A stretch of DNA of 64,000 nt from the NCBI GenBank assembly GCA_964016885.1, contig OZ024740.1, forward strand, positions 136,834,001 to 136,898,000, in the 5' to 3' direction. Each line of letters opens with the position of its first letter. The first letter of the stretch is position 1. Positions 5,333 to 62,524 of this stretch are shown one piece after another. Source of the DNA: Eledone cirrhosa (lineage: Eukaryota). The notes below the pieces were generated by a model, which saw only the letters and a program-made list of their open reading frames with translations, did not search any database and was not told the origin of the DNA. The position numbers and the translations under genes are program-made.

Positions 5333-5442
5333 ATATTCATTTATTATGGTTAAGTAGTGAGTCTTGTTACTCTGGAGTTTCACCTGCGCAGATGAATCTC
5401 CGGAATAACAAGACTCCCTACTTAGCCATAATAAATGAATAT
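5333..5442. repeat. Decayed fold-back palindrome (55-bp arms, about 6 mismatches) carrying hammerhead 3' halves
   Basis: Arms centred on ctgc|gcag at 5387/5388; the minus strand reads gcaggt-GAAA-ctccagag-TA-acaag; a tail with ATTGAGTAC runs to (TA)n at 5499. Confidence 0.8.
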
Positions 5443-19281: not shown

Positions 19282-19931
19282 GTAAAATATAGATTTTTAA
19301 TTTTAATATAATAATTTAATAGTTATAGTTGTTTGGCAAGTGACTTGATCTCAGTATTGAAACTCAAATAATTACAGTGACCAGGTTGTTTTTCTTTTTT
19401 TTTTTAACTGTTTTGTCAGGGAGGAAAGAGCAATACTCATATCATTTTTCAGAGCCTCCAAGAATGCTAGGAAAAAAGGTGGAAGGTATCCTCAAACTGA
19501 AGAGCTGTTCTGAATACTTGCAATAGAGTGAATTCTGCTAAAGACACTCAAGGGACAGATAGTGTGGTTAAAATGGGCATGAGGCTAAGTTTATCACACA
19601 ATGCCATAGTGGGATTTGAACTGAGAACTGAAAGAGCTGGAACTAATACCACAAGTCAACTCATTGGATGCTCTAACAATTCAACCAATCTCCACACACT
19701 GGACTGGTACTTTATTTTATCAACCTGAAAAGACAAAAAGCAAAACTGACCTCAATGGGATTTGAAGACATTGCAGAGAGCCAGAAAAATTACTACAAAG
19801 TATTTTCTCCTAAACCCTAATAACTGCCAATTTGCTGCCTATATATAGGTTATAGATGTACGATAATATATTTTTAACGCTTAATAGAATATTATAATAA
19901 TATTAGAAAATGAAATTGAATATAACAATAT

Positions 19932-21985
19932 ATGACCCAAATCGATCCAATAGAGGGACCAGCGGTGCAAGTTAGTGGTTGTATAATAAGTCAGGCAATC
20001 AAAGATATGAAGACAGGCAAGGCGGCTGGGCCTTCGGAGATAGTTGCTGAGATGTTGAAAGCATCTGGAATGATGGGACATACTATGGTCACCCGGATAG
20101 TAAACCAAGTAATACAGAATGGGGTCATACCTAAGGACTGGCGTAGCAGCATCATCGTTAACTGCTACAAGGGTAAAAGAGATGTTCTAGATAGGGGAAA
20201 CTATAGCGGCATTAAGTTAGTTGACCAAGTCATGAAGGTCACAGAAAGAGTTATGGCAATCAGAGATCGAATTGATCTAGATAAAATGCAGTTTGGGTTT
20301 GTGTCAGGTAAAAGTACCACAGATGCTCTTTTCCTTGTACAACAACTACAGCAGAAGTACCTAGCTAAATGTAAATCCCTCTACTTAGCTTTTGTTGACT
20401 TGGAGAAAGCCTTTGACAGAGTCCCACGCACCATTATCTGGTGGGCCCTTAGAAAGCTAGGAGTAGATGAATGGCTCGTGAGAGCTATACAAGCCATGTA
20501 TAAAGATACAGTCAGTAAGGTTAGAATTAACAATGAATATAGTGAAGAATTTAGCGTAAAAGTCAGAGTTCATCAAGGCCCCCTCCTGTTTATTATTGCC
20601 CTTCAAGCTATAACAGAGGAGTTTAAGACCGGTTGCCCATGGGAACTTTTATATGCAGATGATCTAACGCTCATAGCTGAATCTATGGCTGAACTAAAGA
20701 AATTCCAAACATGGAAGCATGGCCTAGAATCAAAAGGCCTTAAAGTTAACTTGTCTAAGACTAAAGTTCTAGTATGTAGAAAGGAAAATAGGGCACAGGT
20801 GCCCTCTGGGAAATGGCCATGCTCAGTATGTAGGAAAGGAGTAGGTAGAAATTCCTTTCTATGTTCCAAATGCAAACTATGGGTGCATAAAAGATGTAGT
20901 AGGATCACAGGCAAGCTATCTAAGAACGTAGATTTTATATGTGGCCGATGCTCATGTGTAATAAGTAGCAAGTGCCCACAAGATACTAGCTCCTTCTACT
21001 GCCCAGATGGTTCCATAGAGATAGTGGACACTTTCCGTTACCTGGATAACAAAATCAGCAGTGGTGGTGAGTGTTCAGAGTTAGAACGGGATGGAAAAAG
21101 TTCAGAGAGCTTATACTGCTGTTGACCACAAAAGGTTTCTCTTTGAAAATGAAAGGCAGATTGTATGATGCTTGTATATGAACATCAATGTTACATGGCA
21201 GTGAGATATAGGCATTGTGTGCAGATGACCTGCGCAGATTGGAAAGGAACGAAGCATGCATGCTCCGTTGGATGTGTAATAGTAATATACACGAGCAGCA
21301 AAACATAAATGAACTGAGTGAGAAATTAAGAATAAGAGGGATCAGATGCTGTTTACTCAAGAGAAGATTACGTTGGTCCGGTTACGTGATGCACATGAAA
21401 GACGACAGCTGTATAAAAAAGTGCAGGACAATCAAAATTGAAGGAAGTTACGGAGTAGGTAGACCCAGAAAAACCTGGGACGATATGATAAAGTCCGACC
21501 TTGCACACTTGCACTTCTCTAAGACAATGTCACTGGATCGAGATCTTTGGCGCCACGCAGTATTACAGAAGATCCGCCTTCCCTACGTGCAAAGTTAACC
21601 TACAGTCAGTTGGCCACTCCAAACCAAACACACCACAATCCATTACCCCACTCCATCCTCCCACTCCCGCCAACACCACCCTTTCTCTATAAAGTTATGT
21701 TGGTACCACAACATCCAGTCCAAACTAATGAGATTGTGTAGGTGTCACGATAAAAAAAAACACAGTCCACACTGTAATGTGGCCGTGTAGGTAACATGGT
21801 AAAAAGTTTCCAGTTCACACTGTAAATGTGGTTGGTGTTAGGAAGGGCATCCAGCCGTAGAAAACCTGCCAGATAGTCCTATACGAGCGAGACACAGTCA
21901 CCCGACCAATCTTGTCTCAAGTGGGACAATTCCCGTCTAACCCATTCTAGTGTGGAAGATAGGCGTTAAACGATGAGGATGATGA
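19932..21985 (+). mobile_element. 5'-truncated RTE LINE in ECHDC3 intron 7 (RT domain, frameshifted)
   Basis: ORF 19932-21125 (QFGF..GKST, FVDLEKAFDRV, LLYADDL) and ORF 21215-21598; 3'UTR and (GAT) tail. Confidence 0.96.
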
Positions 21986-36010: not shown

Positions 36011-36988
36011 TAATGTTGTTTTTGTTTCGCCCCATATTGGTCCTGACAGATCAGATCTTTGTCATGCACCCTTTGTTCTTTAGTTCCAGGTCAGGATTGA
36101 TCGAGTAGACCTATGATAAAAAATATGCCTTTTTTGAGGCATTGTTGTTTACTCCAGACTATATTGTCTAATGTGTGTTTTTATAAAGACGGTAAGCAAA
36201 GAGATTACAAACAAGCGTTTGAGCAGCATTTTAAGCATACCACCAAAACTCGATGTACCATGAACTAGCTGTTGTTGCTGGTATTAAGGTTGTTATTGTT
36301 GATGTTCTTTAGCGCCAGATCAATTTAATCGAGCAGAAAGGTCTTCAGATTGTGACGATTTCACTTTTTTTTAGGGATATCTAAGACTACATTATCCAAT
36401 ACGCCATTTTAAGATAACATGGTATATTTGGAGGCAAATTTGGATGCTATTTCTAACATATCGAGTGACCATGTAGATGCTCATTCTAAGCCTGGTACCT
36501 GGCCAACAATGGCTGAAATTAACATCAGCAAATCTAATTTAATTTGTGCACGGTTTTGTAGATATTTATGTGAAAGTGTAGGTGGGTGTGCGCGAGTGTG
36601 GATAGCTCAATCATCAACAAATGAAAGAACTCTTTAAGCACTATATAAACATATACAGGTCTCATGAACAACTGTCTAACACGGAGTTAAACAATTCTAA
36701 CAGAAGCGTCTGAATTAGTTAGAATCTGTTAGAATCGTCTAACTCCGTGAAACCTTAGGTAATGGAATAATTATATTGTGTTGTTTATTACATAATTAAA
36801 TAGCTCTGTACTATACATAGAGCACTCTCCTTTCCTTTACCTTTTACACGGAAATACTTAACACACACACATACACACATTTATATATATATATATATAT
36901 ATATGTAAAATGTAAACAGAAATAACACAATCGGTACAGTATATGGAAAGGATATATTAGGTTAACGCTTGATATAGCAGGAAGAGGG

Positions 36989-39363: not shown

Positions 39364-39400
<37 letters not shown>

Positions 39401-39408
<8 letters not shown>

Positions 39409-39717
39409 TAAGAGGAATTCCAACTTTGTCTGATTTACTCGTTTTATTTACAATCCTTTAAAATATATATAATGGTATTATAATGAAAAAGTACTTTCAT
39501 GCTTTCGCAATCTTCAGGTTCATGATATGTGGTGACAGTCGAGTTTGCAATTTTCAACAGTTGAAAATTGCAAACTCGACTGTCACCACATATCATGAAC
39601 CTGAAGATTGCGAAAGCATGAAAGTACTTTTTCATTATAATACCATTATATATATTTTAAAGGATTGTAAATAAAACGAGTAAATCAGACAAAGTTGGAA
39701 TTCCTCTTATTAATATA
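39401..39717. repeat. Perfect 317-bp palindrome (158-bp arms, 1-nt centre at 39559)
   Basis: The arms reverse-complement exactly; the ORF track shows the same 63-aa peptide on both strands, differing only at the centre. Confidence 0.97.
39595..39635 (+). ncRNA. Minimal type I hammerhead (mirror copy on - at 39483-39523)
   Basis: atgaac-CTGAAGA-t-tgc-gaaa-gca-t-GAAA-gtac-TT-tttcat; palindromic stem III GTAC; one mismatch at the base of stem I. Confidence 0.8.
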
Positions 39718-40019
39718 ATCTTCTATACACAATCATACACACCCGTGTATATTTACCTATCTATATCTATATATATATATATAGATATCTATGAACCACC
39801 TAAGAGAACATTAGTCTACGACTTCTTTTATACCATAAACGTGGTTCTGCCTTTGTGTGTAATTGTTTTTTACCGCTCCTATTAATGACGTATTATATTC
39901 GTTTTTTCCCGTTCTTTGCCAGGGAACGTTTCCACGAACCAAAGTATCGTCTTCCTGTCTTCCTCCGGTTGCAACGTTTTTTGAAATATCCAGTTCTGCG
40001 TTTACAGATTGACTTTGTT

Positions 40020-40200: not shown

Positions 40201-40489
40201 CAAGAGTAACCAATCTTAAAGAGAGAGATGGAGATAGGAGAGGAGAGATTGGTGAATTAGTTAGAAGCCAAAGCGTAAAGGCACGTGCTCAATGTGCAAT
40301 ATGCAGTGGACATTATTATTATTATTATTATTCTCTACATTCCTTACATCAAACTAAAATATGTTGACAATCTTTTAATAATGTCTTCCTTGTGAAATTT
40401 GTGGTCTTGTTTTGCTTAACTAATGAATATATATATATATAATAAGTTTCCAGTGTCCTCGCTTTGCCTGGAAACTTACATGAGAATAG

Positions 40490-40572
40490 ACTTTCCTGAC
40501 GACGGAATGCTTCTCTATATTATTCTTCGGAAAATATATTTACTCCATTCCAGAAACTAATTAGTTGGAAGT
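40490..40572 (+). ncRNA. Type I hammerhead with an extended stem II
   Basis: actttc-CTGACGA-c-ggaatg-[insert with cTTCGg hairpin]-cattcc-a-GAAA-ctaattag-TT-ggaagt. Confidence 0.8.
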
Positions 40573-40682
40573 GATATTTTAGTAAGTAAGTTAATTTTAT
40601 AATTTTCTTATTTTACGTCTCTTATATATATATATATATATATGTATATGTATATATATATGTATATGTATATATATATATG

Positions 40683-40713
<31 letters not shown>

Positions 40714-40720
40714 GTGTATG

Positions 40721-40753
<33 letters not shown>

Positions 40754-40754
40754 G

Positions 40755-40785
<31 letters not shown>

Positions 40786-40810
40786 GTGTATGTATATATA
40801 TATATATATG

Positions 40811-40864
<54 letters not shown>

Positions 40865-40876
40865 GCACACACACAC

Positions 40877-40921
<45 letters not shown>

Positions 40922-40932
40922 TATATATATGT

Positions 40933-40977
<45 letters not shown>

Positions 40978-40992
40978 GATTTAATATAATAT

Positions 40993-41026
<34 letters not shown>

Positions 41027-43828
41027 TATTATATCATATATATAAACACCCTATAGATATTCTCACCACTGATTCAATACTTTCTTTATCGAACCGGAAA
41101 AGATGAAAAGCAAAATAAACATCTGTGGGGTTTAAATGCAGAGCGCAGGAACAAATATTACAAGGCATTCTATCCAATATTCTAATATTTCTGTCAAATC
41201 GACCAATCTGGGAATGAAAATATACATACGCTTTTTACCGTTGATTCGTTCTCCGAATATATACCTAGTTTTAATGATTCCAAACCTGCCGATCTCTAAA
41301 AAAAACCAAACGGAGAGTACCATGAAAAAAAAAAAATAAAAAAGATGTTACATAATGAAAGCTATACCCATTTTCAAAGAGAAGACATCTCTCAGGCATC
41401 GCAAAGTGGGTGGAAGATCTCCCCTCCGGACGGGGAGAGATAACAGGTTTGTCATTCTGATACCCCTCGAAGTGAAATGAAAACAAAAACGTATCCTGTG
41501 GGAGATTTAAACTCATAAAGACGTGGCGCAAAATTTATACAATAAAGCAGCACCCACTCTAACGTTCTACTGTCACGGACTTCTTCACAGAACTTAATTT
41601 TGGCTTATATTGAAGGGTCATCGATGCATTAACGTTTGGTAATTCACTCCTGGTGATTGGACACCTACTATTATCAACATCTGGTCATTTATATTTTGTG
41701 TAGACGACAACATCTTTGGGAAGATGTTACATTTTAAGCTGAAGAATAAGAAGATAAATTAGATTAGGCTAAGTCAGCGACAAGTCTTTTTTTTCTTACA
41801 ACTTCATTTAACGTCTTAACGAATCACATGTATTGGTACAAAAACAAACCTTAAGTCATGTAAAATAACAAATGCATTAATTTTTCTCAAGATCTCTTTC
41901 GATAAAAAGTGAATATCTTTAAGAAATCATTTCCATGATTAATTTTTTCCTATCTTGTTTACGCAGTTCATTCACAACGAGGCAAAAAATATTTGGTGCT
42001 AACATGTATCTTCGTAATACATTAACTGTACAAAAGTAGCGAAACACTTCGATTTACCTGTATATACGCATAAGTAATGGTATAGATCTCCGTCATTTCC
42101 GACGATGGATATACAAGCTGCTCGATCAATGGTGTAGCCTGCTCGAGAAATTAGCAAGCAAGTGGCTAAGCATTCCATAGACATGTGTGCCATTAAAGTA
42201 ATTCTCAGAGAGATTCAGAGTGATACAGTGTATGGTGAGGATGACCCTTTGAATTACAGGTACAGTCTATCCGACGGGCTTCCACACAATTTTTGTCTAC
42301 CCAATTCCACTCACAATGCCACGCAGTGGAGTTGAACCCAGGACCTAATGATTACAAAGCCAACTCCTTAACCATTCTGCCTTGTTGCTGATGTGATTTC
42401 AAACATGATGGTGTCAATGGTGTTTATTCTTAAGAAGCAATAAAAGCATTGCTTACCCTGTAAAATTATTTATTCAATATTTAACCTTTTTCGTTTTCTA
42501 TTTCAGTTTTGTAGAATTCTATCCCCATTATCATAGGCGGCGAATTGGCAGAGTTGTTAGAAAGCAGGTACAATGCTTTGCGGCATTCGTTTTGTCTCTG
42601 TTCTCCGAGTTCAAATTCCTCTATGGTCAATTTTGACTTTCATCTATTCAAGGTCGATAAAAAAGTACCAGTGAAGTACTGGGTCGATTTTCCCTCTATA
42701 TCTCTTTCTCACTTCCTTTCTCTCATTCTTTATTCTTCTCCGGAAGAAATCTGCCATGTTCAGACCTGGAGAGGAAATGGGCTCCGTCTGGTTTAAAAAT
42801 GCCATATGTCAATACGGTGTCCCAACGACTCCCTCGGAAGTTACGGGATCATGCATCATACTCATGATTGTAATAACTGTGGACGCAGCATGGCCAAATG
42901 GTTAAAACGTTTTCTTCGTAATCTTGAGGTCTCGGGTCCAAGCACTGTGAGAGAAATTGGTCAGATAGAAACTGTTTGGAAGTCCATCAGATGGACGGTA
43001 CTTGTAATTCAAAGTGTCACACTGAATATCCTTGCGAATTACTTTAAGGGTACACGTGTCTGTGGAATTCACGGCCATTTACACGTTGATTTCATGAGCA
43101 AGCTGTTCTGTTGATCTAATAACAGGAACAGCCATCGTCGAAACTGACGTCCATTCCTTCCTACCGTTATACAATGATATTAACATTTTAATGGTATAAT
43201 TCTATTTTTAATCTCCTGTATGATTTTCATTTGAAAGATATGGTATTACTGTGTTAGATTATTTTTCTTCAATACACAACATTCCATTTGCTTAACCTAA
43301 CCTATTTTCACATCACACCACGGATGGCCTGGATATTTACACTGAGGTAAAAATAAATAGGAATGTCGCGAGCGAAATGCCTCATGAACCAACTAGAGGC
43401 TATTGCCCGCTAAAAATAGCAGCCAATTTTCTCTGAAAACTTGCTATCGTTTTTAAATAAGAAAAGTTATTAAATAAAGTGGTCCTAGACAGGCTATTCT
43501 TTTTAGTCTTTTACTGATTTCTATAACTTATAATTGGGCTGTGTTTTAGTAAATTATATTGATTCCAGTACTTTGTCTAGTATCTATTTTATTGACCTCA
43601 TACATTATGACTGACCCCTCTCCCTCTCCAAACTATGGCCACTACTAGTACACCTTTAGTCATAGGTTTGCTCCACCAGAGCTGACATGGGGTTAACAAC
43701 GACAACAATGCACCAAGAAATGTCGTATGGTAGATTTAAAGAATATACGATAACGCAATAGAGCAGGTTTTCTAAATAAACTAGAAGATCAGTACGGTTA
43801 ATAATATCGGCAGTATCGCTGAATCTTA

Positions 43829-44525
43829 ACTATAATAAAGAAAGGAGTGCGGGATTGCGTCCAGAATATAGTTTTTTTTACCCCGTTTGTAAAATAAGTT
43901 GGATTACTTTGAATAAATAATTGTTTCTACTTTTTGGCACAAGGCCAGCAATTACCCAGTGCATTACTGGTACTTTATTTCATCGACCCCGTAAGGATGA
44001 AAGGCAAAGTTAACCTCGGCGGGATTTGAACTCAGAATGGCAAGGGACGTAACTCTATGCGTCAAAGCATGGCGTCCGACCCTCTACCGATACTGCCAAT
44101 CCACCGCCCTCATGAATGAATATTACATAATTTATGTGCTAAATTTCGTGGCTGTTGATTAAATATATTTTATAGCTTATTAAAAGATCTTTAAAATTCA
44201 CTTCTTTAAAATTTTCAAATGTCAACACTTCCGGTTAGCGGCCGTTATATTGTAACAATTATAAAAATATCGCATATATTTCCGTCACTAATTTTCTCCT
44301 AATGCAGTTTCTATATAATATCGTCTTTTTTTAAATGTATCATGGATTACGTTACTGATTACAGAAGACAGTGTAACATAGACTTCGTTCAATTTCTGTG
44401 TATATTGTCAATTACGATTTTATTTGATGTATCATATCTACATGCATATATATTTGTGTATAATATCAATATACACACTACACATGCTAGCAGAAAAACC
44501 ACCCGAAGGGTGGTTTTTCTGCTAG
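43829..44525 (+). mobile_element. Non-autonomous Helitron-like element with a SINE insertion (43921-44111, minus)
   Basis: Colinear with 13800-14308; terminal hairpin plus CTAG. Confidence 0.78.
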
Positions 44526-45070
44526 TGTATTTAATTTTTCGAGTTGGATTGGTATGCCACATATATCAGGATTACTGTACAAATTTTGCATTTTGATAAA
44601 CCCATGATTTGCATGTGAGGGTTTCTCATATGCAAAACATTAATTTACTGACACATGGAAGTGATTAACGATAACAATTATATTTTAATATAATTTGCTT
44701 TTGCTGGAACCCGCTAGATGGCGCTACGTCATTAGTTTCCAAATTCATAGCTGAAGGCTTTCAAAATGTTTATTCATAAACATACCGTATATCGCTAGAT
44801 ATACAAAATACGCATATATACACAGCTATGTTACAGCAAACAATTTAATTATATTTTAATAATTTATTTCTAGGATATAATTACATAAATGTTCAGCATG
44901 TATGTACAAATGACATACAGGAATAAATGTTTGAATAACCATGGAGAAATAACTATTTATAGAGTTAAATGGTGTGATTCAAAAGCCAACTTTTTATTGT
45001 AGCGACACGACTGCGTGTATGTGCGTGTATGTTTGTGTGCGTACATTTAAGAGTTACAGACAGAGGTATA

Positions 45071-45267
45071 CGTGGGTCGACTGAAAAGTTCTATGTTGAC
45101 CACGAAGGATTGATACTAGAGCTGTGAAATCTTGCATACATAAAATTTAAGTCTTCTTATTAATAACTGCACTGTTTCTTTCTAGGGACTTTATTGAAAA
45201 ATAAACCTCATTTTGTCATTCCATGAGAGTATCTTGGTCAGCGTATGAACTTTTCAGTCGACCCTCA
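45071..45267. mobile_element. Tc1/mariner-type MITE
   Basis: TIRs GGGTCGACTGAAAAGTTC / GAACTTTTCAGTCGACCC; TA flanks. Confidence 0.85.
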
Positions 45268-46457
45268 TATACACACGTTGCGTATTATTATGACTGATGA
45301 TGCTGATAAATAGATGAAAACATTTGGTTATTTCCTGAATTGAGCAAGTAAGGCAAAACAAAATGCCAAAACAACTAAACAAAATATCTAAAAATAACTC
45401 CTATATTAAAACAACTCTTATCTCAGCAGGCTAATCAGTGGTTCACCGTAGTCATGGCGGTGTGAGTGACAGGAAAATGTCTCCGTCTCGAGGTGGAACA
45501 CATATCATTCGTAGAGAACCAGTTTTCTTGGTCTTTGTACCGATATACATTACCTAAGCCAGCAGTAGAAGAATAAAGAGCACCGCGAATTTAAGTGTTT
45601 GGGAGTTTGGGTGGTGGTGGTGCGTGCATGTGTGTGTGGTTGGGGAGGGAGTAATTGTTTACCTGACGTCAGCCGAGGGCGGAAACATTGCTGTTTATCT
45701 TCCACCAAATGATTACATAATCCCAGAGCAGCTTTCTCACCGCATCCATTCCATACGCCTGATACGAAAAACAAAACAAATAATAATGATGATGATAATA
45801 ATACTAATTTCTTTTTATTTGCCAGAGGGGATTTACACAGAGATGGGGGAGGGGTGTTACTCTGAAATCGAGTAGAAAGAAATTAACAAACAAATAATAA
45901 GCAAAAGAATTACAACAATGAAAATTCTCCAATAGAGTGGATGACCACACAGGGTGACTTAGGAACCCTACAAACCTTAAACCACCGAACGCTCGAAGAG
46001 CAGCCTAGTAGGGCGTCCATCTCCTCTCTAAATCAATCAGCCTACAGGCATATACAGCCTACAGGCTATTATTGTAACATTAATTCACCTTTTAACAAAT
46101 GTACTGCGGGGCAGCACTTCCTTCTCCATCCGCATTTTCTTTTCCAAGGGAAACTCGAAAAAGTTGATGAGGGATTGGCCACCAAACAGAGGAAAGCTGC
46201 TTGTGCTTCCTGGGCAAAAAGATGACGGCATGTCGATCCTCACGGTGGACTCGTCTGATAGCCGGATTCCTCCTACACGTGATAACAGCTGTTCGACATA
46301 ACTCCACATGTTAGTAATGCACGGAAACTGGACAACTGCGTGCAGAACGGACTTGTCGCTTTGTGCTCATATCGGACAGGTCCATCTGACCGCACTTCCG
46401 TGTCTCTAAAGTTTATCTTGAACTGTTAGTGCTTCTTAATAACATTGCCAAGCGAGG

Positions 46458-46879
46458 GATTTCTGGAAGTTATCTATATTTCCCGACTAGAAAGTCCTCC
46501 CGAATAGACTCGATTTCTGGAAGTTATCTATATTTCCCGACTAGAAAGCCCTCCCGAATAGACTCGATTTCTGGAAGTTATCTATATTTCCCGACTAGAA
46601 AGTCCTCCCGAATAGACTCGATTTCTGGAAGTTATCTATATTTCCCGACTAGAAAGTCCTCCCGAATAGACTCGATTTCTGGAAGTTATCTATATTTCCC
46701 GACTAGAAAGTCCTCCCGAATAGACTTGATTTCTGGAAGTTATCTATATTTCCCGACTAGAAAGTCCTCCCGAATAGACTCGATTTCTGGAAGTTATCTA
46801 TATTTCCCGACTAGAAAGTCCTCCCGAATAGACTCGATTTCTGGAAGTTATCTATATTTCCCGACTAGAAAGTCCTCTC
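46458..46879. repeat. Homogeneous 54-bp tandem repeat, about 7.8 copies
   Basis: Unit GATTTCTGGAAGTTATCTATATTTCCCGACTAGAAAGTCCTCCCGAATAGACTC; about 2 substitutions among the full copies. Confidence 0.97.
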
Positions 46880-47029
46880 GATTTCGTCGACGCACAGAGA
46901 CACTCCAAGAGCGTCGTCGCAATTCCCACCACTAATCCTGTATTGAAGTCTAGCGTGGAATTTCCACTGACCGCATTGCCCGATTGGTAGAGGTCAGTGA
47001 GCGCCAGGCAACATTCCAATTGGTGGCCA

Positions 47030-47190
47030 GCAGCTCATTAGCATAGTGGTTAACGCTTTCGCCTGGCATCCGAGAAATGAAGGATTTGATTAATCGTAGG
47101 CACTTCTTTCCATTTTCTCCTTCTCTAAGGGTACTTTACCCGATTTTCTCAACTATTATTATGGTCATTTGTGTTGGGACGCACACATTC
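47030..47190 (+). mobile_element. tRNA-derived SINE of a second family (relatives at about 62595-62770 on - and 63005-63160 on +)
   Basis: tagcatagtggttaacgc...gcctggcatccgaga head; shared ccgattttc...atggtcatttg body. Confidence 0.65.
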
Positions 47191-47227
47191 TATATTTCTT
47201 ATGAATACAGTATGACTGAAACTAGTA

Positions 47228-47296
<69 letters not shown>

Positions 47297-48383
47297 CTAT
47301 TTGACTCTCCACCTATCGCTCACTATACATACTTACAGACACACATGCATACATACATACATACATATGTAAAAATATGTAAAAGATTTCAAATATTCTG
47401 CATCTAATAACTGCATATACACTTGTACAGATACAAAGAATATGCACATGCACACATATAACTAAAAACATCCACATCCACACATGCAATAACATCCATA
47501 CCTACACACATATGCATGCAGACATACATACATATCTACCTTGAGTTTTGTATCTGTGTTAGAGACCGACTCTTTCTCTATTGGTAAAAAAATCGTGAAA
47601 TTATAAAACCAGAAGAAAATACATACATACATACGTACGTACATACATATATACATACATACAAGCAAACAGACAAACAAACAAAGTATCTTAAAATAGG
47701 AAATAGACCGAACACATTGAGCATTATATATATGCAGTAGCAAACCTTATAAACGTTAAATTGGCGGCAGGTTGTGTTTATATAAAGTACAAAAAATGTA
47801 AAATACATATACATACATACATACATACATACATACATACATACATACATACATACATACATACATTCATACACACACATACACATACATATACATACAC
47901 ACATACACACACATACATACATACACACACATACATACATATATACACATACACACACGTTTGTGTGTGGATATATGCATGTAAACCACACTTGTTCATA
48001 GAGAAGGTCACGTCGTGTTCAACAGTTCTCCAAAGATGTCAAATTTAAACGAAGTAATTAGTCTTATGAACTAATTAGTCTATATACAGCCGTAAATTAC
48101 ACAATTTACTCAACAATAGTCGCAACAGGCGCCGGCGTAATTAAGCGTCATTGTATAACAAGCAATAAAAACAGTCTTTTCAATGCCGTGTCTATCTGTC
48201 TGTTTACATATACACCTATATATACGTACATATATACACGTTAGTTGTTAGTGACAACGAACGGGAGAAAAAGTGTGAGTTAAACATAACTATTAGCACC
48301 AGCTGAACACAAGCTAATTTGTTAAAAACATAGTATTGGATTTAAAGACAGACAAACACCACTGTAAGAATCCAAACGAAGAC

Positions 48384-48437
<54 letters not shown>

Positions 48438-48548
48438 AATTTATATCTAGTAACATTTATATACATACAGATGCACATCAATGCTAGCAAATATATAGGT
48501 TTTGTCTTAGTAACATTGTGGTTCAATGCATGGGGTTGCAGAACAATA

Positions 48549-48826
48549 ATATGAGAGACGTAAGATAAGAAAATTATAAAATTATAAAAAAATTATAAAA
48601 TTGACTTACTTACTAAAATATCACTTCCAACTAATTAGTTTCTGGAATGGAGTAAATATATTTTCCGAAGAACATATAGAAAAGCATTTCCTGACGACGG
48701 AATGCTTTTCTATATGTTCTTCGGAAAATATATTTACTCCATTCCAGAAACTAATTAGTTGGAAGTGATATTTTAGTAAGTCAATTTTATAATTTTTTTA
48801 TAATTTTATAATTTTCTTATCTTACG

Positions 48827-48836
<10 letters not shown>
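48549..48836. repeat. Near-perfect fold-back palindrome (about 140-bp arms) centred on a hammerhead core
   Basis: Apex ttcc-TGACGAC-ggaa; the arms differ by one 4-bp and one 1-bp indel; the right arm is the element seen at 40490-40622. Confidence 0.95.
48687..48764 (+). ncRNA. Type I hammerhead (paralogue of 40490-40572)
   Basis: tttc-CTGACGA-c-ggaatg...cattcc-a-GAAA-ctaattag-TT-ggaa. Confidence 0.75.
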
Positions 48837-48924
<88 letters not shown>

Positions 48925-49023
48925 GTTATTCCGGGTTGAATCGGAGGTAACCACAGTAAGTAAGGTACTCAATACATAGCAGAGTATAACAGTTTTAATA
49001 TAGATTTAATACAGTTTTAATAT

Positions 49024-49074
49024 AGATTCCTGATGATTTCTAATGAATGAAACAGTTCTAGTCCTGTAGAATCT
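49024..49074 (+). ncRNA. Type I hammerhead with intact core; predicted cleavage after GUA at 49068
   Basis: agattc-CTGATGA-t-ttc-taat-gaa-t-GAAA-cag-ttctagtc-ctg-TA-gaatct; 6-bp stem I, 3-bp stem II, 4-bp stem III. Confidence 0.9.
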
Positions 49075-49076
49075 CA

Positions 49077-49148
<72 letters not shown>

Positions 49149-55616: not shown

Positions 55617-56546
55617 CATTTAATGACGATTAAAATTATACTCTGAGGGTATATCATCAAACAAATTTGAAGATATTTAATCAAGCAAAAGCCCTAGTTT
55701 GAGGATATTTCATCAAATAAAATCTTAGTTAGAGGCTATGTCACCAAACAAAGCAATACTCTGAGTGATTGTATGTTTTATTTTTTTATTTTTGTCGTTT
55801 TTTCTTTAATTTTGATGACTAAAAAAACTCTGAGTAGCTAACGCAAGCCGTCTACCACATATGTAATGATTCTGAAACTTTCACTTAAATTCAACACATG
55901 TAAATCACTGTAAAAAAGGATTTTCCGAATGATAGAAAAGTTCGCTTCGCAATGAGGGGACACTCGGTTAGATAATACTGCATGGCGTCTTCAGCAAATG
56001 TCTTTTATCATAAGCCTCCGGGCAATGATAAAAGACATTTGCTGAAGCCTGTCGTATGAACTGTACCGGTCATTCAAAAGTCCAGCTTTATCACATACGC
56101 CCTATTATGTTGATTTCGCCCATGGCTTACATTAAGGATAATCGCTAATTCAATGGATAAATAGTTTGGTTGATTCGTCAATTGAATATATAGATAATCG
56201 AAACAGACAAAAATCCATCTACGTTGATTATTCTAGAATATTTCAAGAACAGTAAAATACTCTTTTTTTTCAGTTGATAATTTTTTCTAACATTTTTCAT
56301 ATTTTCATTCTATTAGAAAAAGCGTTTTTTAAAAAAAAAATCTATCTTTTACTGAATGTATTTAGCATATCGCAAACTAATGACAATATATGGATGAAAC
56401 CATTTTTGCACATGGCTTTCTTTACTCTAGGGAGCATCCCACCATCTGGATCAATCAAATGTCATTATATATGGATATATTATATTATATCATATATAAT
56501 ATATTATACTGTATTACATTATAATATATTATATTATACTATATTA

Positions 56547-57751: not shown

Positions 57752-57752
<1 letters not shown>

Positions 57753-58038
57753 GTGTGTGTGTTTTGAAACAGTGAGCAGGTTTGAAATTAGAAAATAGAA
57801 TCGCTTTCACCGTATTTTTTGACTAAAGAAATTTTAGTCTGATAATGGGGATTAGAACCCTCAGATAAATGGAAAAAGATGAGTATTGACGTACATGCAC
57901 GTCAATACTCATCTTTTTCCATTTATCTGAGGGTTCTAAACCCCATTATCAGACTAACATTTCTTTAGTCAAAAAATACGGTGAAAGCGATTCTATTTTC
58001 TAATTTCAAACCTGCTCACTGTTTCAAAACACACACAC

Positions 58039-58039
<1 letters not shown>
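57752..58039. repeat. Fold-back palindrome (about 141-bp arms, 2 mismatches, 6-nt loop)
   Basis: Apex gtattg-ACGT-acatgc-ACGT-caatac; flanked by (TA)n/(CA)n. Confidence 0.95.
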
Positions 58040-60021: not shown

Positions 60022-62524
60022 GTTACTAGGTTTGAAGTAGTGGAAAGAGAATCTATGGCAATATGGACACGTGGAGAAGATCGCTGATTTCCTATTTAGC
60101 AGGCTAAGATTAGAGTGAATAATATTTCTAGACTCAAGGATGCAAAAGTTACAAAATTTGTTAGGTGGTCTATATGAAGGGGCCTTAGCTATCACTTCCC
60201 ATTTTAAGGTGTATCGTATATTACTTGATTTTAATGAGTGTATGTATGTGGATAGTGAGGTTACGTTGCTAAGTTTAGGGTTTCTGAACGAATGAATGTG
60301 TGAATTTTATCTGGTCTTAAAGCTATTCGATGTTGAACCTATATATACTTTCGAGATGTGATTAGCAGTTACAGTACCGGAGTAGATAATGTTTTTAATA
60401 AGGCAGTTCTTATTTAATGGGCATGTCTTGTTAGATCTACAATTACAATTGTTTTGGTAACTAGTATACTGGTTAAGGGGGTATGAATTTGAGTGGTTGT
60501 TTCTGTTTCTACTTCTAGTATTATGATTATGGTAAGTATTTGTACTATTATTATTGGTATTATTAGTATGACTTGCTGTATGGTCCTGTACTGTGTTATT
60601 GTTCAGGTTATTTCTATGCTGGACATTATTACTTTGGTGTAATCTGAAGTACTTTTTAAACTTTCTCTTGTTGGTGCTGGCTATATGGTCTGCTATGTTA
60701 GGTGTGGTGGAGTAGGCGATTTTAATGGTATTTTTGTTAAATAGGTTGTGGTATTTATGGTTGATTGGGAAGTTATTGTCTAGAATAGAGAAGAAAGCTT
60801 TAGGTATGTTTGTTGAGACATTTAAGTTGAACGGAGGATTAAAAAATGTGTTACTTCTTCTTCTGTTCTTCTTATGGTTGTTATTCATACTACTGTTTTG
60901 TGTGGTGCTAGGTACCTTCTTATCTATATTTTTCTTTCTGAGGTTTTTCCTAGGATTATTGCTGTGGTGTGAGTTAACTTTTTTGATGCCCTCTGTATAG
61001 GAGTCGGGGTTTTCAATACTATGATCATATCTAATTTTATTCATGGCCATGTTGAGTGAAATTATATTAGGCTGTCTATGGGTGGTTAACGATTTAGGTT
61101 TAAATTTAATTTTATCTCTATGGCCGGAACAAGCTAAGGCTTCATTATAGTATTGGGAGTTACGGTTAAACGTATTATCGTTGCAAGAAAGACTAGAGAT
61201 TCTATTAGATACCCCTTTAATGATTGAGTTCAATACAGATTTAGGGTGGTTAGAGTTGGTATTAACATAGAAAAGTATTTCATTAGGTTTATGATAAGGT
61301 GTATATTTTTTAGAGTCTAAGTAGAGAGTTAAATCCAGGAAGTTAACATTTTTGGTGTTTTTATCTAAAGTGATACCTAAGTTGTAGTTTTTAAATATTT
61401 TATGCAATTATTTTCTAGTTCTTTCTATATTAAATTTTTTAAAGTCTACGAGGAAAAGTGCGTCGTCTCGATAGAGACCACCGTTCAGGTAAGGTAGGTT
61501 CTTATGTATTTCGTTTAAGAGAAATAGACCAACTAAGTCAGTTACCTGTGCCAAGTCGCTAGATCCCATGGTGATATCAAAGTTGTTGGGTGTATTCTTG
61601 CGGGTCCATAGTTGGTCTTCAAATTTAATTATTGTTTTCCTGGCCGCAAGGATTATATCTACCTGGGATCTAGTGAGTTCACTATTATTCATGGCCATTA
61701 TTAAGGCTTTATTTAAAAGGATAGGTGAAATAGAGGTGTAGTAGGAGTTTATATCGAATTGGATGAATTTCTTATTATTTTCATTAATACCATTAAACCA
61801 TTCAATTACTTCACTAGTGTTTCCACAGAGGTTAAAATGGATTTTTTGTTTAATTTGGGGGATTACTTTATCTAAATTTTTTTACTAATAATACCAATGT
61901 CGGATCTGGATGGGCAAATAAGTCTAATTGAGGGGTTAGTATTGAAGTCATCCTTATGGTCTTTCAGAGAGAATCGTGGGGGATTAGGGGTGTAAGGTTG
62001 TGTATATCTCTCTAGTCCTAATTTACATATTAAACTACGGGCTTCAATATTTATGTCATCCAGGTTTTTATGAGATGTTTTTTTGTAGTTCCTATAAAGT
62101 TCTTTATATATAAATTCTCTATATGTATCGTAATCTAGGCTATATATGTTTTTAGTTTTATCAGCTAGTACTAAGACATTCCTATTTTTATTAAAGATTT
62201 TTTATGGTGGAATTTAGATTATTTAGGAAGTTGTTCTTCTTATTGTAGTATTTCCTGTAGTTAATTTTTTTAACAAGTGACACAAGGTCGTTTTCAAATG
62301 AGTCCAGTAAGATATTGTGTGGAGTGCTTTTATATGTTTTGAAGCCGTATGTTTCAAACGAAGGTGCATCCTGTTCTTCCACAACGCGGTTCCTATCATA
62401 GTGGAAAGCCCCCATCTAACTCTTTTAATAAAAGAGTTGACACTATTAATCAGTAGTTTTTCATATGTATCCTTAGATGGGATATGTATGTCCTTCAAAG
62501 ACAAAGGAAGATAATCTTTGATCA

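What the first reader, a model, noticed from the sequence alone, without database searches (positions are those of the whole stretch)
40430..48836. Before/after pair revealing the fold-back mechanism
The element at 40490-40622 is linear: gagaatagactTTCC-tgacgac-GGAAtgcttctc. Its paralogue at 48687-48836 is nearly identical downstream, but upstream of TTCC it is replaced by the reverse complement of its own 3' part. The switch lies at the 4-bp TTCC/GGAA micro-hairpin around the catalytic core, as expected if a truncated cDNA 3' end snapped back and was extended to the (TA)n end.
Basis: partly seen in the sequence, partly recalled or inferred. Interest (0 to 1): 0.75.

Follow-up and report, generated by a model that had tools for sequence, protein, structure and literature searches.

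The report
Two-ended ribozyme-repeat insertion, not self fold-back
Both pieces are copies of an abundant ~530-base mobile repeat with a predicted self-cutting hammerhead RNA, and the mirror-image copy carries 123 extra bases on its inverted arm that the other arm lacks, so it was likely written in from both sides of one DNA cut by a borrowed Penelope-type enzyme rather than by one copy folding back on itself.

Summary
The pair is real. Both are copies of a young 521-542 bp hammerhead retrozyme (1,447 exact 38-mer matches; tandem arrays). B's inverted arm runs 123 nt beyond the mirror of its forward arm (to 48431). The junction keeps an extra T. A and B are different subfamilies. In 146 sampled loci, 94 head-to-head junctions show enriched microhomology (3-6 nt in 21 of 94, null 12%), but most have 0-2 nt or inserted letters, and arm starts lie a median 130 nt apart. 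In 71 of 90 inversions one arm ends at a fixed site N and the other at N+123 (tail); a sister family repeats this, 13 of 13. 23 of 71, B included, cannot be self-copies unless later trimmed. The exact TTCC/GGAA snap-back product occurs 0 times in the genome. Likely mechanism: a Penelope-type enzyme primes two cDNAs on one RNA from the two cut strands of (TA)n, then their 3' ends pair in trans. Inverted copy plus one-sided tail is a known Penelope signature; the joining step is still open in print.

The parts
40440..40622 (+). Copy A: linear, 5'-truncated retrozyme copy (subfamily A, monomer positions 341-523), ending at site N, no tail
   Evidence: 99-100% to subfamily A
40441..40478 (+). 11-bp hairpin native to the monomer (not an inversion product)
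   Evidence: present in tandem monomers; DNA fold -8.9 kcal/mol, z -4.9
40490..40572 (+). Predicted type I hammerhead in A: stem I 40490-40495 with 40567-40572, core CTGACGA 40496-40502, long stem II, GAAA at 40553, palindromic stem III, predicted cut after 40566
   Evidence: folds unconstrained; 84 of 84 cells paired, 2 compensatory pairs in 7 sequences
40428..40441 (.). (TA)n at the 5' side of A
   Evidence: sequence
40623..41040 (.). TA-rich microsatellite at the 3' side of A
   Evidence: sequence
48390..48433 (.). (TA)n target tract at the outer end of B's inverted arm (site T)
48431..48553 (-). 123-nt tail of B (monomer positions 1-123, between sites N and T), present on the inverted arm only; predicted long stem-loop
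   Evidence: 99% to subfamily B; fold
48554..48688 (-). Inverted arm of B (subfamily B positions 408-542); lacks the CUGA core
48687..48688 (.). Head-to-head junction, 2-nt overlap TT; 4-bp TTCC/GGAA pairing needs one bulged A
48687..48831 (+). Forward arm of B (positions 394-542) with hammerhead core at 48691, ending at site N; the 5' strand of stem I is shortened
48833..48924 (.). (TA)n target tract at the outer end of B's forward arm

Best explanation
A and B are copies of a non-coding hammerhead retrozyme, and B was likely made when a borrowed Penelope-type reverse transcriptase/endonuclease cut a (TA)n tract and primed two cDNAs on one retrozyme RNA, one from each cut strand. Shown: two fixed outer ends (N and N+123), one of each per inversion; (TA)n at both ends; both arms from one sequence source; short microhomology or inserted letters at variable junctions. 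Inferred: one strand primes at N and the other at the tail end T; both cDNAs stop at loosely related points; their 3' ends pair in trans over 0-6 nt (in B, GGAAA with TTCC/TT) and each serves as template for the other's second strand. A is the case in which only the N-primed cDNA was long enough to see. The template is likely a circle or a homogeneous multimer. The enzyme's source element was not found.
For: 71 of 90 inversions with both ends in view are N+T, 1 TT, 1 NN, 17 with one non-standard end. Sister family: 13 of 13 loci with two detected ends are N+T, of 26 examined. Linear copies end at N (31) or T (19) of 52, so both sites act as 3' ends; (TA)n follows 84 of 86 N ends and 75 of 77 T ends of inversion arms. 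23 of 71 N/T inversions have an arm not contained in the other, 20 by more than 25 nt. B and its twin at C13:29147842 share a junction, with the tail on opposite arms. Arms are of the same subfamily in 71 of 71 and share derived variants at 0.0081/bp, like tandem units (0.0096) and unlike other loci (0.0017). Variants seen in both arms are in all units at 54 of 60 listed sites. Three junctions overlap on a 2-4 nt palindrome with zero loop. In vitro, a Penelope-like protein cuts and extends both strands, starts at two internal sites that bound the tail, and is predicted to be a dimer (PMC11167929, parts 1-2 of 4).
Against: Arm starts are closer than independence predicts: 18 of 94 within 25 nt vs 10.2 expected (p 0.011); same register 9 of 71 vs 4.6 (p 0.029). 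Non-contained cases (23) are fewer than under independent ends (30.9 +/- 3.5). 4 junctions sit on the best local stem and one carries a 20-nt inverted copy of its own arm start, so short snap-back does occur. B's junction recurs once. Shared variants fit self-copying equally well. No partner element found. TSDs are unreadable in (TA)n (8 of 142 candidates vs 1-4 shuffled). The sample was chosen by 3'-half probes.
Confidence: 0.7

Rival explanations
1. Snap-back plus trimming: one cDNA primed at the tail end folds back, copies itself completely, and the endonuclease then removes the tail from either arm at site N. This rescues the first reader's idea for B.
For: Arms share private variants. Excess of near-palindromic junctions. 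B's junction can be drawn as a 4-bp hairpin with a bulged A and recurs once. Craig 2021 ascribes the tail to endonuclease resolution of an intermediate (PMC8557442, passages).
Against: Median distance between arm starts is 130 nt. 0 of 6 ends with a local stem of 7 bp or more, and 4 of 95 with 4 bp or more, joined at that stem. Exact snap-back junctions genome-wide: 0 at TTCC/GGAA, 0 at stem II, 1 match at the 11-bp hairpin that is a linear copy. Zero-loop junctions exist. Both tail bounds are RT start sites in vitro.
Confidence: 0.15
2. Self-priming on an antisense RNA that folds back at a palindrome, as proposed for rotifer Penelope elements.
For: PMC3846280 (abstract, outline and passages) infers self-priming from palindromes at head-to-head junctions. 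5 of 94 junctions here have arm starts within 2 nt (1.2 expected).
Against: Junctions are spread over the whole monomer and mostly not at palindromes. Outer ends are precise at the sense 3' ends and ragged at the 5' ends, as for copying of sense RNA. It does not explain the one-N-one-T rule.
Confidence: 0.07
3. B is a retrocopy of an older palindromic master locus, so the junction arose once and was propagated.
For: The same junction occurs at two loci.
Against: The two loci carry the tail on opposite arms relative to the loop. Other junctions in the sample are different from one another.
Confidence: 0.05
4. DNA-level rearrangement after insertion, or a long-read assembly artefact.
For: No short-read contig was listed that spans B's own junction.
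Against: Arms end at two different fixed sites with different flanks; arms differ by 1.9% on average; two opposite-strand joints and the tail-to-(TA)n end appear in short-read contigs of one sample.
Confidence: 0.03

Closest known systems
Metazoan non-LTR retrozymes (Cervera and de la Pena 2020, PMC7229834, passages; Li, Clavereau and Pollet 2026, bioRxiv 10.64898/2026.07.22.740005, part 1 of 5 and passages)
   Same: Non-coding tandem monomers, one type I hammerhead per unit, low GC (34-36%), monomers, dimers and multimers dispersed in an animal genome.
   Different: Monomer 521-542 bp, against about 300-390 bp in the passages read. Long stem II with an unpaired C and A flanking it. Head-to-head inversions and a tail are not described in the passages searched (0 hits for 'inverted' in PMC7229834; 0 for 'tail', 'junction', 'palindrom' in the preprint). 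RNA not seen here.
Insertion units of endonuclease-positive Penelope-like elements (Arkhipova 2013, PMC3846280; Craig 2021, PMC8557442; passages)
   Same: 5'-truncated partial tandems, an inverted 5'-truncated copy at the 5' end, a tail at one end, microsatellite targets, microhomology at 5' joints.
   Different: No ORF. Tail is 123-125 nt rather than 30-40. Those papers propose self-priming or endonuclease resolution; the counts here favour two primers.
Anolis Poseidon PAc in vitro (Frangieh 2024, PMC11167929, parts 1-2 of 4)
   Same: Two internal RT start sites bounding the tail, AT-rich cuts, both strands extended, hammerhead read through.
   Different: Start sites are adjacent in an AC-rich loop without homology to the target. 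Here they are 123 nt apart and each is followed by TA-like letters. The parts read do not treat the inverted junction.
L1 twin priming (recalled, from no call)
   Same: Two target strands prime on one RNA and give a 5' inversion with microhomology.
   Different: In L1 the second primer site is variable and the inverted part is upstream sequence. Here both sites are fixed and the arms overlap as mirror images.

Membership tests
Metazoan non-LTR retrozyme | Tandem repeats of a few hundred bp with one type I hammerhead per unit | tested here: met
   Arrays of period 521, 50 distinct monomers of 508-550 bp, hammerhead fold in four subfamilies
Metazoan non-LTR retrozyme | No protein coding, low GC | tested here: met
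   Longest Met-ORF 27-77 aa in trimers, GC 0.34-0.36
Metazoan non-LTR retrozyme | Expressed as self-cleaved circular RNA | not testable with these tools
   No RNA holder listed; shared variants across units fit a circle but do not show one
Type I hammerhead ribozyme | CUGANGA, GAAA, UH core with stems I-III and covariation | tested here: met
   7 sequences only, structure drawn from them; variant with an extra A before GAAA; no Rfam hammerhead hit in the window at E<=1
Type I hammerhead ribozyme | Self-cleavage | not testable with these tools
   5 of 188 arm starts lie within 3 nt of the predicted cut: no clear signal
Penelope-like element insertion unit | Inverted 5'-truncated copy adjoining the 5' end | tested here: met
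   94 head-to-head junctions, 1 opposite arrangement, in 146 regions
Penelope-like element insertion unit | Tail at one end only | tested here: met
   71 of 90; 13 of 13 in sister family; length 123-125 nt, longer than described
Penelope-like element insertion unit | Target-site duplication | tested here: inconclusive
   8 of 142 candidates vs 1-4 in shuffled pairings
Autonomous Penelope-like element | RT plus GIY-YIG ORF | tested here: not met
   No ORF in the monomer; (TA)n or unrelated flanks at the 5' ends
Derivative of a named PLE pLTR | Homology to the pLTR of a coding PLE in the same genome | tested here: inconclusive
   One PLE family tested (30 of 151 matches): only TA-rich low-complexity hits; other families not tested

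The most novel reading that the evidence does not exclude
The family is a genome-wide record that a Penelope-type enzyme, working as a pair, copies one small ribozyme-made RNA circle from two fixed start sites 123 nt apart, one per cut DNA strand, and closes the insertion by pairing the two cDNA ends in trans. The hairpin-forming 123-nt tail would be the portable signal that recruits the enzyme. This would replace self-priming as the explanation for Penelope inverted ends and tie retrozyme mobility to these enzymes.
Probability: 0.5. Interest if true: 0.62.

Novelty: new member of a known kind. Interest (0 to 1): 0.4.

Why it matters
How Penelope-like elements make their inverted ends and one-sided tail is stated as unresolved (PMC8557442). 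Published ideas are antisense self-priming and endonuclease resolution. A short, young, high-copy passenger with a long tail makes the choice countable, and gives a ready template design (N site, tail, T site) for the existing in vitro system. The locus itself is ordinary, one of several hundred like it, and earlier notes of this scan reached the same reading for other families.

Tried and rejected
Rfam scan of the window: only microsatellite-driven miRNA-type hits, no hammerhead. Junction hot spot at the catalytic core: 9 of 188 arm starts at 392-396, not significant in a scan (p 0.15; 0.73 without B and its twin). Arm starts at the predicted ribozyme cut: 5 of 188. A-to-G editing shared by arms: 2 of 31 locus-unique shared variants, no signal. 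Autonomous partner: the window's own PLE family shows no homology; L218 is a plain linear copy with no coding element seen in the 1.5 kb upstream; L219 was fetched and not analysed. RNA: no RNA holder listed. Short-read contigs on B: no listed piece spans the junction, uninformative. One structure string was misregistered and redone. Literature searches for a two-primer account of Penelope inversions found none in the held library; subscription papers such as the 2005-2006 Penelope reviews and bioRxiv supplements were not seen. Several of the 28 'inserted letter' junctions are probably miscalled extensions through variant sequence (for example regions 44, 65, 101); they were kept in the counts.
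Full report
Observation. B's left side is the reverse complement of its right side over 131 nt with one 4-nt slip. Three corrections matter. The inverted arm does not stop at the mirror of the (TA)n end: it runs 123 nt further, 48431-48553, and has its own (TA)n. The junction reads GCA-TT-TCC, one T more than a clean TTCC/GGAA fold-back gives. A (40440-40622) and B belong to different subfamilies, about 93% alike.

What the family is. The genome (G000, 3.0 Gb; one earlier scan note calls it an octopus, not tested here) holds tandem arrays of period 521 and 1,447 exact matches to one 38-mer. The first 100 listed matches fell in 61 loci, 41 of them inverted, which extrapolates to roughly 870 loci and 590 inversions. 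Fifty distinct monomers fall into four subfamilies of 522-542 bp with no long ORF. Each unit folds without constraints into a type I hammerhead: 6-bp stem I, CTGAYGA, long stem II, GAAA, palindromic stem III. With three diverged relatives, 84 of 84 cells pair and two stem II pairs change on both sides (7 sequences, structure drawn from them). This meets the testable features of a metazoan non-LTR retrozyme (PMC7229834, passages; bioRxiv 10.64898/2026.07.22.740005, part 1 of 5 and passages; PMC4209133, passages). No RNA was seen.

Sample. 185 loci merged into 146 regions: the 30 best hits to A, all clusters among the first 100 of 1,447 exact matches, the 100 listed of 106 matches to a subfamily B probe, and the two junction matches. 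All probes lie in the 3' half of the monomer, which biases arm lengths. There are 94 head-to-head junctions and one opposite arrangement; 52 regions are linear.

Among 66 junctions without inserted letters, overlap averages 2.11 nt against 1.09 in 1,500 simulated junctions; 21 have 3-6 nt (null 12.3%; p 2.7e-5, or 0.005 counted against all 94). So microhomology is enriched. But 45 of 94 have 0-2 nt and 28 have inserted letters, many of them locally templated (a few are probably miscalls). Inverted microhomology is expected whether one cDNA folds on itself or two cDNAs pair, so the test does not decide the mechanism.

The deciding pattern. Arms end at one of two fixed sites, N or T = N+123 to 125, each followed by (TA)n (84 of 86 and 75 of 77). 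Of 90 inversions with both ends in view, 71 have one N and one T end, one has TT, one NN, and 17 have a non-standard end. A sister family about 73% alike repeats the rule in 13 of 13 loci with two detected ends, of 26. Linear copies end at N (31) or T (19) of 52. In 23 of 71 inversions neither arm is contained in the other, so self-copying is impossible without later trimming; B is one. B's junction occurs at one other place, where the tail is on the loop-bearing arm.

Hairpins are not the drivers. Arm starts lie a median 130 nt apart. Of 188 arm starts, 95 had a local stem of 4 bp or more and 4 joined on it; 6 had 7 bp or more and none did; 6 lay in the 5' arm of the 11-bp hairpin and none joined its partner. 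Exact genome searches for the predicted products gave 0 for TTCC/GGAA, 0 for stem II and 1 for the 11-bp hairpin, which is a linear copy. Exact patterns miss diverged copies, but the sample extrapolates to tens of ends in that hairpin arm. Starts are not significantly clustered at the catalytic core.

Results against my reading. Starts are closer than independence predicts (18 of 94 within 25 nt vs 10.2, p 0.011). Non-contained cases are fewer than the independent null (23 vs 30.9 +/- 3.5). One junction holds a 20-nt snap-back insert. B's junction can be drawn as a weak bulged hairpin and recurs. A minority of true snap-backs, or two cDNAs that stop at the same RNA break, would explain this. 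Among the 9 same-register near-palindromes the loop is in the T arm 5 times, the N arm 3 times and absent once, which fits the second reading better.

One template. Arms are of one subfamily in 71 of 71 confident calls and share derived variants as often as tandem units do, five times more than other loci. At 54 of 60 listed multi-unit sites a variant found in both arms is in every unit. This fits one circular or homogeneous RNA, and it fits self-copying too.

Mechanism. Inferred: a Penelope-type RT/endonuclease binds the retrozyme RNA, cuts (TA)n on both strands, primes one strand at N and the other at T, and the two cDNA 3' ends pair over a few bases and prime each other's second strand. In vitro support comes from another element: both strands are cut and extended, RT starts at two internal sites that bound the tail, and a dimer is predicted (PMC11167929, parts 1-2 of 4). 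The partner element was not found.

What is known. Inverted 5'-truncated copies with a one-sided 30-40 bp tail and microsatellite bias are described (PMC8557442, passages; PMC3846280, abstract and passages), and the latter proposes self-priming at junction palindromes, so the fold-back idea is also in print. I found no paper in the held library that argues the two-primer model from counts. Earlier notes of this scan state it for other families here and in other genomes; they are unchecked and are not independent support.

Verdict. Real and explained at family level: a new retrozyme family showing a known Penelope insertion pattern, with an unusually long tail. The before/after fold-back reading fails for B as stated. 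Interest 0.4.

Noticed in passing
window 39400-39720: Another near-perfect palindrome next to (TA)n, with CTGAAGA cores at 39601 (+) and 39517 (-) and about 12 extra letters on the right arm; looks like a head-to-head insertion of a different hammerhead-bearing family.
   Followed up: no
window 49000-49080: Short stretch with CTGATGA...GAAA ending in (TA)n at 49079, 200 nt from B; possibly a stub of another hammerhead family.
   Followed up: no
window 60307-61881 (-): Broken PLE-like RT plus GIY-YIG-like ORF (motifs recognised from memory; no Pfam hit); 151 matches scored in the genome; no hammerhead core in its 3' region and no homology to this retrozyme.
   Followed up: partly
L007:2656-3142 and L220-L249: A young sister retrozyme family (about 539 bp, about 73% alike) with compensatory stem II changes; its tail end is often followed by (CT)n before (TA)n.
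   Followed up: partly
window 5333-5442, 36680-36749, 44487-44525, 55989-56047, 57752-58039: Further self-inverted stretches listed by the self-comparison; some may be microsatellite only.
   Followed up: no
G000:C1:272316926 (L019): Three-piece junction with a 20-nt inverted copy of the forward arm's own start: a short true snap-back followed by joining to the other arm.
   Followed up: partly
G000:C1:170797952-170802700 (L028-L030): Array of at least nine near-identical 521-bp units ending in a short inverted arm.
   Followed up: partly
window 19926-21598 and others: Several RT-bearing LINE fragments with a PHD-like finger (Pfam RVT_1 and PHD).
   Followed up: no
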